From the human T2T-CHM13v2.0 reference genome, Homo sapiens, in NCBI RefSeq assembly GCF_009914755.1, contig NC_060926.1: a DNA stretch of 64,000 nt, one strand, 5' to 3'. The stretch's first letter is position 1. Every line of letters starts with the position of its first letter. Below, one piece after another: positions 1 to 64,000 of the stretch. The notes beneath the pieces were generated by a model. The model made no database searches, was not told the origin of the DNA, and was given only the letters and a program-made list of their open reading frames with translations. A program made the position numbers and the translations under genes.

Positions 1-38
1 TAACCATGTAAGTCCTAGAAAGCAGCTTTCTTGGCAGG

Positions 39-225
39 GAAAGAGCACAGATTTGGGAGCCAGACAAACCTATATTTAAATATTCATGCTCAGCCTTTAA
101 CCAGCTGGGTGACTGTAGGCAAATTACTAGGCCTGGTTTCCTCTTTACCTGGAAAAAATACCTTCCTCCAGACCTGTCCTGAGGTTTAAATGAGATCATA
201 TCTGTTAAAAAGCTTGGTGCTATGT
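39..225 (+). mobile_element. MIR SINE fragment
   Basis: Core motifs ctgggtgact..ggcaaattact..gtttcctc..gaggtttaaatgagat. Confidence 0.65.
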
Positions 226-437
226 AAACTCTAAAATGCACAGATAATTTAGAGCCTTATGTCCTATACATACAATGTTAAAAATTGGGGTTGTATTCCC
301 CAAATGCCTTTGAATAATAAAAATATCAGAGTGATCAAACAAAGAAACACAAACACTTTAAAATAAATGTTTACATACACAAATGATTTTATAAACATGC
401 ATTTAAAATGTAAAAATGAACTCAGATATCAAACTCC

Positions 438-1152
438 TGAAACCACCATTGCAAAATAAATATCTGAGACAGTGTAACAGATCTGACTTAACCAACTCCA
501 TCTTGCTTCTAACCACCAAGCTCTCCTTGTTCATTTTTGGACATAAGCCAAATTCACTTTGGGAGGAACTTAGTTGATAGTTTAAAACAAAGTGACAATA
601 GCCCTTTCCCAAAACAAACCCCCTTCTTGCCTGGGGACTAAACTGCCTTTGTAGGACTAACAAATTAGCCAAAAGATTAGAAATTATGGTTTAGGAGTCA
701 TGCAGCTGGAGGCTACAAGATTCCAACCCTCCCCAAATTGCTCCTGGAGATAACGTCACTATTATAAAACCTAAGATCCGTGCTTGAGAGATTTTGCAGA
801 CTGTGCACTTGATGGATCGGCTAGCACTACACAGATCGATAAACTGGCTCATCTGATCTTATGGCCCCCGCCCAGGAACTGACTTGGTGCAAGAAGACAG
901 CTTTGAATCCTTATGATTTCATCTCCCACCCAACAGATCAACACTCCAGATTCACTGTCCTCTACCTACCAAATTATCCTTAAAAACTCTGATCCCTGGA
1001 TGCTAAGGGTAACTGATTTGAGTAATAATAAAACTCCAGTCTCCCACACAGGTGGTTCTGCATCAATTACTCTTTCTCTATTGCAATTCCCCAGTCTTGA
1101 TAAATTGACTCTGTCTAGGCAGTGGGCAAGGTGAACCTGTTGGATGGTTACA
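438..1152 (+). mobile_element. ERV1 solo LTR, LTR8-like
   Basis: TG...CA termini (tgaaaccaccattgcaaaa ... gatggttaca), AATAAA, and a 4-bp TSD ctcc (434-437 and 1153-1156). Confidence 0.85.
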
Positions 1153-1290
1153 CTCCCATCATAACTTTTCCTTTTCAGGGAGTTTTCCAGATAAGCTGAA
1201 ACAGGGGGGATTTTATACAATACAGTGAGTTTGCAAAGTTGCAATATTCTTCCATTTCTGGAAATCCTGTGGACATTCTAAGATTCTCAA
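1153..1290 (-). pseudogene. Dynein pseudogene AAA1 exon remnants (continuing 405-437 beyond the LTR)
   Basis: MSTGFPE resembles VAEGFVD; KLTVLYKI resembles KFITLYTL; SYDG|SL across the LTR resembles HYDWGL. Confidence 0.5.
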
Positions 1291-1699
1291 TGGCTCTAAT
1301 GACTTTGGGACTGCATTTAACTTAGAATCAAAAGTCTGAAATGTTTTCTAAACCTATTCTGTATCCATGAGTGATTATAAAAGTCTTTGATGAATGGTGG
1401 TAAATGCTAGAAGAAGAATGTCCTTGGCAAATTCATATTCTTCGAGGATCTCTCACTCTTCCATTTCAGTAGGTTCTTATTCCTATACCACTGATTCTAA
1501 CCACTTCCCTTTTCCAGGATGCTGAAGGTACAGAAAGGTCTTCTCCTAGAGGAATCAAAATATTCTTTCTTATCCCTGAAAACACATTTGTTTGATATCT
1601 CTGGGACTCTGTGCTTCAACATAGAAAAAAAAATGCTTGCCAAATGTGATAATTAATTCTTTAGACATACAAATTTGCTGTATCCAGTCACAAATCCAG

Positions 1700-1870
1700 G
1701 CAAGCAAAAGCCATCCCATCATGATTTCTGATCACTGCCCCAACCTAAGCTCTCTTCACTTCCTTCAGATGTTTTCCCCTGCCCTTCAAAATCACATTCC
1801 TAGGCAAATACAACAATTGGAAATTGCAGGCTAGCTCATCGGCTTCCAAAGCCAACTCAGGGTGATGAAA
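1700..1870 (-). pseudogene. Dynein pseudogene AAA1 P-loop exon remnant
   Basis: AG then FITLS, resembling YITLT. EGQGKT (GQGKT at 1770-1784) resembles Walker A GPAGTGKT; AFAC resembles VFNC. Confidence 0.6.
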
Positions 1871-61653: not shown

Positions 61654-61965
61654 GGCCGGGCACGGTGGCTCATGCCTGTAATCCCAACACTTGGGAGGCC
61701 GAGGTGGGTGGATCACTTGAGGCCAGAAGTTTGAGACCAGCCTGGTCATCATGGTGAAACCCTGTCTGTACTAAAGATACAAAAATTAGCCGGGTGTGGT
61801 GGCGGGCGCCTGTAATCCCAGCTGCTCGGGAGGCTGAGGCACAAGAATCACTTGAATCTGGGAGGCGGAGGTTGCAGTGAGCCAAGATTGTGCCACTGCA
61901 TTCCAGCCTCAGTGACAGAGTCAGCTCTGTCTCAAAAAAAAAAACAAAAACAAAAACAACAACAA
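61654..61965 (+). mobile_element. Alu (S-type)
   Basis: Full Alu. Confidence 0.92.
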
Positions 61966-62058
61966 GAAAGACTAGAGTAGATGAACTTTAAAGTTCTAAG
62001 CTATTAAAATTCCAGTAAAGATTATTGCTAATTTTCACTTTAAAAAATTAGAATTCTA

Positions 62059-62373
62059 GGCCAGGCGCAGTGGCTCACGCCTGTAATCCCAGCACTTTGG
62101 GAGGCCGAGGTGGGCAGATCACAAGGTCAGGAGATCGAGACCATCCTGGCTAACATGGTGAAACTCTGTCTCTACTAAAAATACAAAAACAAAATTAGCC
62201 GGGTGTGGTGGTGGGCACCTGTAGTCCCAGCTACTCAGGAGGTTGAGGTGGGAGAATGGCATGAACCCAGGAGGCGGAGCTTGCAGTGAGCCAAGATCAT
62301 GCCACTGCGCTCCAGCCTGAGCGACAGAGCGAGACTCTATCTAAAAAATAAAAAAATTTAAAAAATAAAAATA
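62059..62373 (+). mobile_element. AluY/Sc-like
   Basis: TSD aaaaattagaattcta. Confidence 0.92.
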
Positions 62374-62428
62374 AAAAATTAGAATTCTAACAGAAAAGAA
62401 TGACATAGTTGTGACATAAAAGAGCATT

Positions 62429-62570
62429 TGCCAGGTGCCAGTGGCTCATGTGTGTAATCCCAACACTTTGGGAGGCCGAGGCGGGTGGATCACATAAGGC
62501 CAGGAGTTAGAGACCAGCCTGGGCAAGATCTCTTCCCAATTTTTAAAAAATAAATAAAAGAAAAAAAATA
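62429..62570 (+). mobile_element. Alu left monomer
   Basis: Single arm plus A tail. Confidence 0.8.
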
Positions 62571-63286
62571 AAAGGGCCGTTTTATTTTAATCTCTTAACA
62601 TACAGCTAGTTGTCAGTCTCTTGCTCATTAAATGCTTACATGGCCCCTTGCCACCTTCGGGGCTGGGTGTCAGGGATACAGATGAGCAAGCACGTTGCAG
62701 TCCAAGAGCTGTGGAGGGGAGACAGCGTGTAAACAGATCATGAAAGTGCAATGTCAAAAGCATTCTAAGAAGGTAGTAGGCAAAGAACCCAGCGGGGAGG
62801 TGGCGAACCCTCCCCCACGATGACCTAACCGAGGAGGGTACATTCAAGATGAGCCTAGAGAATCTGTATAGTTAGCCAAGTGTGAAGGAAGAAAATCTGG
62901 GCAAGGGAGGAAGCATGTGCCAAAGGAGCTCAGCAGGTTCTGAGAAAGGAAGTCTGGTCAGAGTGGGACAGGTGTGGGGCAGAGATGAACGGTGAGGCCA
63001 AGGGACTTTCTCCTGTTGACAGAGAGAGCCGCTGAAGGGCCTCCCACAGGAGCTGGGCACACACAGACCTGCCTCCTAGAAAGTGCCCTGGCAGCAGTGC
63101 AGAATGTGGATCAAGGGAAGAGTGGCCAAAGGCAGAGACAGTCAGCCATCACAAAGCTCCTATATTCATTGAATGAGCTGATGAGGATCTGGGTTAAGGC
63201 AGTGGCAGGAGCAAGGGAAGAGAGGGCAGGGGCTGCTGAAGGAGGAGAAGGTTTTCTGCGGCCCATTAACTGAATTACATTTATCA

Positions 63287-64000
63287 TTGCGCGGAGAAAA
63301 ACTTTTCCTCTACCCTCTTAGGTTCAGTACCTGGAGCCTGTGAATTAAACTTTAAAAAAAAAAAAGAGAGAGCGAGATTAATGGGAGAAAAGGCACAGAA
63401 ATTTTGTTAATCTTTATGTGCATGAGGGTTCACAGAAGTGAAACTTGAGCAATTATACTTGGGCTTATATACCATTTTAACAAAAAAAGGGGATTTGGGG
63501 GCTTCAAGGGATGATAAATCATAGGGAAGTAACTAGGAAATATATGGGAAAACTAATGGAAGATAAAAACGAGCCAGGCGTGGTGGCTCACGCCTGTAAT
63601 CCCAGTACTTTGGGAGGCCGAGCCAGGTGGATCACTTGAGGCCAGGAGTTCGAGACCAGCCTGGCTAACACAGTGAAACCTTGTCTCTACTAAAAATACA
63701 AAAATTAGCCGGGCATGGTGGCACACACCTGTGATCCCAGCTATTCAAGAGGTTGAGCTGGGAGAATCACTTGAACCTGGGAAGTGGAGGTTGCAGTGAG
63801 CCAAGATCCTGCCACTACACTCCCGCCTGGGGGACACGGTGAGACCCTGTCTCTCTCTATAGATAGATGGATAGATAGATAGATAGATAGATAGATAGAT
63901 AGATTACAATAAGGTCTTTTTAAACAAATTCATCTCAGGGTGGACTCCTCATCTCCAGTGATACGAGTGGCCATTCCTTTCCTATACAGGGGTGGGAAAC
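63287..64000 (-). mobile_element. ERV1-type LTR interrupted by an Alu (~63572-63855) with a (GATA)n tail (~63858-63905)
   Basis: agattaatgggagaaaaggc..cttatataccatt motifs; Alu consensus; tetranucleotide repeat. Confidence 0.65.

What the first reader, a model, noticed from the sequence alone, without database searches (positions are those of the whole stretch)
1..64000. Synteny hypothesis: the missing ohnologue of DNAH11
Established: human DNAH11 lies between SP4 and CDCA7L on 7p, while the paralogous SP3-CDCA7 interval on 2q31 has no known dynein gene. Inference only: a decayed DNAH11-like gene in gene-poor DNA fits that slot as a 2R whole-genome-duplication sibling. Neither flanking gene is visible in this window.
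Basis: inference. Interest (0 to 1): 0.7.

Follow-up and report, generated by a model that had tools for sequence, protein, structure and literature searches.

The report
Fossil ciliary motor gene beside SP3
Human chromosome 2 carries, between SP3 and CDCA7, the broken exons of a fourth outer-arm ciliary motor gene whose closest intact relatives are the fish and amphibian gene dnah9l, so it is likely the genome-duplication twin of DNAH11, and it likely died in early mammals rather than soon after the duplication.

Summary
The hypothesis holds and can be sharpened. The window lies between SP3 and CDCA7 on chr2. In 264 kb scanned, 9 minus-strand dynein segments beat every null and lie in protein order; 1 of the 9 is inside the window, with a few weaker ones. 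A stalk exon extends the remnant to about 430 kb. Several splice sites survive, and stops and frameshifts show the gene is dead. The remnant is not a DNAH11 copy (AU p about 1e-52). It groups with amphibian members of the dnah9l / 'DNAH11-like' clade, intact in sharks, gar, teleosts, lungfish and amphibians and sister to DNAH11 (100/100). Dong et al. 2010 already reported the paralogy and one exon, as a relic of loss after 2R. Here the gene outlived the amphibian split; decay of roughly 0.15-0.4 substitutions per site and an echidna fragment point to loss in mammals. Not tested: gene order in outgroup genomes; about 277 kb of the interval was searched only by Pfam profile.

The parts
17791..18047 (-). 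Strongest dynein exon remnant in the window (tail, profile positions 940-1025). Acceptor AG and donor GT intact, one in-frame stop, 257 nt long and out of frame at its 5' end. Its acceptor is the one used by exon 3 of predicted lncRNA LOC105373745.
   Evidence: (65.5 bits)
17509..17659 (-). Next tail exon remnant (profile about 1024-1077), acceptor intact, several stops and a frameshift
   Evidence: (18.9 and 14.1 bits vs null maximum 12.7)
21838..22161 (-). Decayed tail exon (profile about 840-939), frameshifted, donor GT intact; weaker
   Evidence: (18.7 and 15.4 bits vs null maximum 15.1)
24117..24218 (-). Weak tail exon remnant (profile 663-696), one stop
   Evidence: E=0.01; 15.9 vs 15.1 bits: marginal
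59159..59299 (-). Possible exon remnant in the collinear slot, several stops; not above null
   Evidence: E=0.009-0.31; 13.4 vs 16.2 bits
17847..21041 (-). Predicted lncRNA LOC105373745; canonical splice sites; last exon is the 5' 201 nt of the dynein exon remnant
   Evidence: hub annotation
1..64000 (-). The whole window lies inside the dead gene, which continues on both sides. Remnants outside the window (T2T chr2, minus strand): 174,367,861-174,368,070 (exon A, Dong et al.'s remnant); 174,280,493-570; 174,251,225-314; 174,235,280-417; 174,198,047-148; 174,192,249-449; 174,147,988-174,148,107; 174,145,562-675; 173,938,823-173,939,032 (stalk; coordinates only, DNA not read).

Best explanation
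The window holds broken exons of a dynein heavy-chain gene that runs from just downstream of SP3 towards CDCA7; it groups with fish and amphibian dnah9l, is likely the whole-genome-duplication twin of DNAH11, and likely died in the mammalian lineage. Shown: collinear exon remnants with splice sites, stops and frameshifts; placement inside the Dnah9l clade next to amphibians; Dnah9l and DNAH11 as sister clades older than the shark/bony-fish split; mirrored CDCA7/CDCA7L flanks. Inferred: that the duplication was 2R itself; that intact dnah9l sits between sp3 and cdca7 in outgroups; that loss fell between the monotreme split and the placental radiation. It makes no dynein today. Two pieces appear reused: the 3' end of exon A with its intron side is likely a conserved non-coding element, presumably acting on SP3 (target inferred), and one exon's acceptor serves a predicted lncRNA.
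For: 9 of 9 above-null segments collinear on one strand. Over 493 aligned columns the remnant is 52.5-60.2% identical to 14 Dnah9l proteins, 44.8-50.5% to 13 DNAH11 and 41.4-42.5% to 2 DNAH17-type proteins. Tree: sister to 5 amphibian Dnah9l rows 99/96, inside Dnah9l 100/100; grouping with DNAH11 rejected, p-AU 1.65e-52; still inside Dnah9l with only the 8 segments that DNAH11 queries also find. N-terminal tree with DNAH9-like and DNAH17-like rows: Dnah9l + DNAH11 100/100. Nine species checked hold both paralogues at 53.7-68.5% identity, and 6 of 6 intact Dnah9l proteins checked have four P-loops. One AAA1 intron position matches DNAH11, while the DNAH9 and DNAH17 hits run through it. Echidna P0017 falls in the tetrapod Dnah9l clade; its residues 1-183 are 50-54% identical to frog Dnah9l, against 47% for platypus and devil DNAH11 vs frog DNAH11 over a similar stretch. 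Decay: 144 of 209 Dnah9l-invariant columns kept, matching K about 0.15; segment counts match K 0.3-0.4, and 48 simulations at K of 0.5 or more gave at most 5 segments and none of 50 bits, against 8 observed with 5 of 50 bits or more.
Against: Outgroup gene order was not tested. None of the 120 listed rows (of 353 hits) of the full-length search carries an amniote name, which would fit an earlier loss. The two dating methods disagree (0.15 vs 0.3-0.4), so exon deletion or non-coding constraint is distorting them; the model is crude and the conversion of K to branches rests on recalled branch lengths. The echidna model is only 335 aa, skips an internal stretch and stops early, so it does not show a working monotreme gene. 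The human branch is long (0.67, flagged). No full-length DNAH9 was in the motor-domain tree. On the 8-segment subset the identity ranges touch at 55.0%. Five C-terminal Pfam searches and DHC_N2 found nothing in the interval.
Confidence: 0.8

Rival explanations
1. Same gene, but lost or truncated earlier, in the amniote stem; the visible exons survive because they overlap conserved non-coding elements in the SP3 regulatory block.
For: No amniote among the 120 listed full-length hits. Echidna P0017 and the unnamed P0018 both end at the same place near residue 545 of DNAH9. Exon A is demonstrably constrained on its non-coding side. A few very well kept exons coexist with many lost ones.
Against: It needs about eight separate exons, over 150 kb, each under DNA-level constraint: without constraint, simulations left at most 2 detectable segments at K 0.6-0.8 and none at 0.7 and 1.0. 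The echidna N-terminus evolved no faster than working DNAH11. 233 of the 353 hits were not displayed.
Confidence: 0.13
2. Dong et al.'s reading: the DNAH11 paralogue was lost at rediploidization after 2R and one exon survived as a regulatory element.
For: PMC2831330 section 24; the exon and its intron side are indeed conserved in mammals.
Against: At least 10 significant remnants, not one; placement beside amphibians; intact orthologue-clade genes in sharks, fish, lungfish and amphibians. Much of their 1.1-kb chain is an Alu-type repeat matching another: my chr2 and chr7 spans are 1,089 and 1,184 bp against their 1,100 and 1,194, and the 395-bp block has 99 hits in 264 kb.
Confidence: 0.02
3. 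A later segmental copy or retrocopy of DNAH11 (or DNAH9/DNAH17) that decayed here.
For: The matching DNAH11 exon aligns at DNA level (65% over 120 nt); NCBI names the relatives 'DNAH11-like'.
Against: AU test rejects grouping with DNAH11; lower identity to DNAH17-type proteins; DNAH9 scores below DNAH17 on two exons; introns and a 430-kb span exclude a retrocopy.
Confidence: 0.02
4. Dnah9l and DNAH11 arose by a local duplication of the SP-dynein-CDCA7 block in the gnathostome stem, not by whole-genome duplication.
For: The tree dates the split only as older than the shark/bony-fish divergence; no lamprey or amphioxus row was identified.
Against: PMC2831330 reports that both blocks align to one lamprey region; 2q31 and 7p15 are the HOXD and HOXA paralogons (established knowledge).
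Confidence: 0.03

Closest known systems
Zebrafish/gar dnah9l (Dnah9l; NCBI 'dynein axonemal heavy chain 11-like')
   Same: The remnant falls in this clade. PMC6008050 lists Dnah9l as an OAD beta chain without a human counterpart (Table 1).
   Different: Intact genes of over 4,000 aa there; broken exons here. [quoted passage not shown]
Ancient regulatory coding exon at SP3-CDCA7 (Dong et al. 2010, PMC2831330, Table 4)
   Same: Same paralogy, same exon (exon A), same idea of non-coding retention.
   Different: They saw one exon, no host gene, and dated the loss to post-2R rediploidization. Here there are at least 10 remnants, a named intact clade and a much later loss; much of their chain is repeat.
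Human DNAH11 (SP4-DNAH11-CDCA7L, 7p15)
   Same: Sister clade; same orientation relative to the CDCA7-family gene; matching exon sizes (212 vs 210 nt; AAA1 exon with the same Pfam span).
   Different: DNAH11 is intact; the remnant is excluded from its clade.
Unitary pseudogenes (lineage-specific gene losses such as GULO, UOX; names recalled)
   Same: Disabled single-copy gene at its likely ancestral locus, exons in order, intact orthologues in outgroups.
   Different: Older and more eroded; about 17% of the covered protein span is above null; locus orthology not shown by outgroup gene order.

Membership tests
Outer-arm beta dynein heavy chain (DHC4beta: DNAH9/11/17/Dnah9l) | Best matches are DHC4 chains across tail and motor | tested here: met
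Outer-arm beta dynein heavy chain (DHC4beta: DNAH9/11/17/Dnah9l) | Open full-length frame with four P-loops (working motor) | tested here: not met
   5 in-frame stops in 12 fragments, frameshifts, a lost acceptor
Dnah9l orthologue group | Nested in the Dnah9l clade at the tetrapod position | tested here: met
Dnah9l orthologue group | Same flanking genes (sp3, cdca7) in outgroup genomes | not testable with these tools
   No vertebrate genome but the window's own is held. X. tropicalis P0342 lies on a 91,218,944-bp contig, recalled as chromosome 9 with HoxD; not checked.
2R ohnologue of DNAH11 | Paralogous flanking genes in the same order and orientation | tested here: met
   CDCA7/CDCA7L and DNAH11 end; SP3 from hub table; SP4 from PMC2831330, not tested
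2R ohnologue of DNAH11 | Duplication before the jawed-vertebrate crown; both copies in sharks and bony fish | tested here: met
2R ohnologue of DNAH11 | Single pro-orthologue in amphioxus or lamprey | not tested
   Only the lamprey statement in PMC2831330
Unitary pseudogene | Disabling lesions, genomic exon-intron layout, no intact copy elsewhere in the genome | tested here: met
   Searches with echidna and fish Dnah9l proteins found the chr2 exon, loci I read as known DNAH genes from their positions, and one weak chr10 hit at E=0.54 (one search scored 18 of 310 candidates).
Regulatory coding exon / conserved non-coding element | Sequence constraint independent of the reading frame | tested here: met
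   20 intron-side pseudo-codons 17-20 identical in 8 of 9 usable mammal-type ORFs, above the exon's own 34-42 of 46 and 10-22 of 31
Regulatory coding exon / conserved non-coding element | Enhancer activity on SP3 | not testable with these tools
   No chromatin or reporter data

The most novel reading that the evidence does not exclude
Mammals lost a fourth outer-arm beta dynein, Dnah9l, that served inner-ear cilia (otic-vesicle-only expression in zebrafish embryos), and the loss is tied to the weaker kinociliary motility of mammalian ears; the dead gene's exons were kept in part as SP3 enhancers.
Probability: 0.12. Interest if true: 0.72.

Novelty: new member of a known kind. Interest (0 to 1): 0.45.

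Why it matters
It links an orphan fish and amphibian dynein (dnah9l) to a human locus, completes the vertebrate outer-arm beta dynein set as DNAH9, DNAH17 and the DNAH11/Dnah9l pair, and corrects the one published example found at this locus from a post-2R relic to a much later gene loss. Practically, zebrafish and Xenopus models of DNAH11 disease carry a sister gene that humans lack, and many fish proteins named 'DNAH11' in NCBI belong to the other clade. It also makes a testable case of a dying bystander gene leaving a conserved element next to a transcription-factor gene.

Tried and rejected
Pfam searches for DHC_N2, AAA_7, AAA_8, AAA_9, AAA_lid_11 and Dynein_C gave no hit in the SP3-CDCA7 interval. 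A genome search with a 2,578-aa fish protein scored only 18 of 310 candidates and was uninformative. The first frameshift scan was inflated by an L1-like ORF at chr2:174.183-174.191 Mb and was replaced by a composition-corrected one. The first AU test (p 1e-65) was biased because 'outgroup' P0036 falls among teleost DNAH11; it was redone. Exons upstream of exon A were not found above null; several starred 12-14-bit hits are treated as chance. Literature: 9 searches. Only PMC2831330 addressed this locus in what I saw; of the 3 papers listed for 'dnah9l' (4 held), 2 were read in passages and showed no link to human chr2, and 1 was seen as a listing only. GENCODE, UCSC chains and gene-loss screens were not available, and the supplement of PMC2831330 could not be searched, so an existing annotation or a fuller statement there is not excluded. 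The HGNC dynein review's single 'pseudogene' passage concerns DNHD1; Kollmar 2016 mentions fragmented dynein pseudogenes in fish and bird genomes without naming this one in the passages seen (1 of 2 supplement files searched).
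Full report
Observation. 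The finding assumes a decayed DNAH11-like gene in the window. The six-frame list shows an ORF at 17875-18114 (-) whose best PDB matches are DNAH17 (E=1.9e-4) and DNAH9. Genome-wide Pfam searches gave further chr2 hits on the same strand: DHC_N1 at 174,367,849-174,368,004 (E=1.4e-6), AAA_6 at 174,198,047-174,198,160 and 174,192,249-174,192,446, and the stalk domain at 173,938,823-173,939,032 (E=6.5e-8) with a non-significant companion at 173,977,682 (E=4.5). I held 264 kb (window), covering about half of the roughly 530-kb interval; the rest was covered only by such profile searches.

Map of the remnant. A composition-corrected, frameshift-tolerant scan with a Dnah9l profile found 9 segments above the highest score of three nulls (20.4 bits), all on the minus strand, with profile positions 292 to 2387 running in order from 174,367,998 down to 174,145,562 (Spearman -1). 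An independent HMMER run gave 9 minus-strand hits of 8 bits or more, 0 on the plus strand and 0 on reversed DNA. One of the 9 lies in the window; an anchored scan adds weaker collinear pieces at 24218-24117, 22052-21838 and 17662-17509. Several acceptors and donors are intact, one AAA1 acceptor is lost, 5 of 12 fragments carry an in-frame stop, and exon A (chr2:174,367,861-174,368,070; 210 nt vs 212 nt in DNAH11) and the window exon (257 nt) are frameshifted. This is a dead, intron-containing gene of about 430 kb, not a retrocopy.

Synteny in human. CDCA7-family exons lie at chr2:173.853 Mb (+) and chr7:22.040 Mb (-), the latter about 1.7 kb after DNAH11's last exon (+). SP3 (-) ends 19 kb from exon A (hub annotation). 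The order and orientation mirror SP4-DNAH11-CDCA7L; SP4 itself was not located here.

Identity. Exon A retrieved 14 proteins of 16 candidates: 13 mammal-type ORFs or models at 77-98% and an echidna 'dynein heavy chain 11, axonemal-like' of 335 aa at 78%. Following it led to a clade of mostly full-length proteins named dnah9l or 'DNAH11(-like)': 120 rows listed of 353, from teleosts, gar, bowfin, sturgeon, bichir, 4 cartilaginous-fish rows, lungfish and 14 amphibian rows, none with an amniote name. All 120 are closer to Dnah9l than to DNAH11 references, and nine species checked hold both paralogues at 53.7-68.5% identity. Over 493 columns the human remnant is 52.5-60.2% identical to 14 Dnah9l, 44.8-50.5% to 13 DNAH11 and 41.4-42.5% to 2 DNAH17-type proteins. 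It is sister to the amphibian Dnah9l rows (99/96) inside Dnah9l (100/100), on a long branch of 0.67. Holding it with DNAH11 is rejected (p-AU 1.65e-52, after correcting a mislabelled row), and the 8 segments also found by DNAH11 queries keep it inside Dnah9l. An N-terminal tree with DNAH9-like and DNAH17-like fragments, labelled by identity to human exons, makes Dnah9l and DNAH11 sisters (100/100), each with sharks, ray-fins and tetrapods, and puts the echidna protein among tetrapod Dnah9l. The duplication therefore predates the jawed-vertebrate crown; that it was 2R is inferred from the paralogon.

When it died. It was alive at the amphibian split (tree, intact amphibian genes). All 13 mammal-type hits, including a titi monkey and a bat model, read the same non-ancestral frame just upstream of the conserved core of exon A, while the echidna reads the ancestral one, so that lesion likely predates the primate-bat split. 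Echidna residues 1-183 diverged no faster than monotreme and marsupial DNAH11, but the model skips a stretch and ends early. In surviving segments 144 of 209 Dnah9l-invariant columns are kept, matching K about 0.15 neutral substitutions per site, a low-biased figure. The number of detectable segments matches K 0.3-0.4; at K of 0.5 or more, 48 runs gave at most 5 segments and none of 50 bits, against 8 and 5 observed with exon A left out. With recalled human-lineage distances (about 0.17 to the primate-bat ancestor, about 0.4 to the therian ancestor, over 0.6 to the amniote ancestor) this points to the stem of placentals or therians. The gap between the two estimates and the absence of full-length amniote rows keep an amniote-stem loss open.

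What still works. For exon A, the 20 pseudo-codons on the intron side are 17-20 identical to human in 8 of 9 usable ORFs (13 in the ninth), against 34-42 of 46 in the exon's 3' part and 10-22 of 31 in its 5' part. Of the 13 hits, 3 that leave the sequence at the donor and 1 near-human row were left out; 4 of the 20 positions were in the query; the species of the unnamed rows are unknown. Constraint that is strongest in the intron indicates a non-coding element; SP3 as its target is inference. The predicted lncRNA LOC105373745 splices into the window exon at the old acceptor (18047) and would carry a 67-codon frame that reads the dynein sequence; there is no evidence of translation.

Prior art. 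Dong et al. (PMC2831330; passages and section 24 read; supplement not searchable) state the SP3-CDCA7 / SP4-CDCA7L paralogy and report one DNAH11 exon aligning to non-coding chr2 as a relic of rediploidization after 2R. Their chain matches exon A plus an Alu-type repeat: my spans are 1,089 and 1,184 bp against their 1,100 and 1,194 (the Alu label is recalled, 99 hits in 264 kb are counted). Yamaguchi et al. (PMC6008050; passages and section 12) list Dnah9l with no human counterpart and found it only in the otic vesicle of embryos. Kollmar 2016 (PMC5100056; passages and one supplement file), the HGNC review (PMC8754002; passages) and PMC3146978 (passages) did not name this locus in what I saw. 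PMC13108966 (passages) reports robust kinocilium motility in bullfrog and subtle motion in mouse, which is context only. Nine literature searches surfaced no paper linking dnah9l to human chr2; annotation databases and gene-loss screens could not be checked.

Verdict. The feature is a unitary pseudogene of dnah9l, the sister of DNAH11: a new member of a known kind, partly anticipated in print, with the orthologue's identity and the late loss as the new content. Confidence 0.8 overall, about 0.6 for the mammalian timing; interest 0.45.

Noticed in passing
G000:C12:97,534,049-98,095,343 (+): Four dynein-domain hits in protein order over about 560 kb: DHC_N2 (E=2.5e-6), AAA_6 (7.6e-6), AAA_7 twice (0.12 and 5.0e-6); also AAA_lid_11 at C12:105,475,232 (1.1e-9). 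Possibly a second decayed dynein heavy-chain gene. DNA not read, annotation not checked.
   Followed up: no
G000:C8:43,950,618-43,952,376: A Dynein_C hit (+) 1.3 kb from an intron-less CDCA7-family copy with stops (-); likely a CDCA7L retrocopy carrying the antisense end of DNAH11.
   Followed up: no
window 17847-21041 (-): The predicted lncRNA's spliced sequence holds a 67-codon ATG-led frame whose last 56 codons are the dynein remnant.
   Followed up: partly
P0007 and P0013: Titi monkey and bat gene models both splice from exon A's donor to the same short downstream stretch, suggesting another conserved element or a shared prediction artefact.
   Followed up: no
P0017 and P0018: Echidna and an unnamed tetrapod-clade fragment both stop at the same point near residue 545 of DNAH9; a shared truncation or a shared model break.
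   Followed up: partly
L044-L045, chr2 about 174,183,000-174,191,000: An L1-like element with long open frames sits just downstream of the AAA1 exon remnant; newt protein P0345 matches it through an ORF1-like N-terminal insert, so that model is likely contaminated (L1 label recalled).
   Followed up: partly
proteins: Many fish proteins named 'dynein axonemal heavy chain 11' belong to the Dnah9l clade, so the name covers two paralogues.
   Followed up: yes
window 1643-3120: The two RefSeq enhancers overlap none of the dynein remnants found.
   Followed up: no
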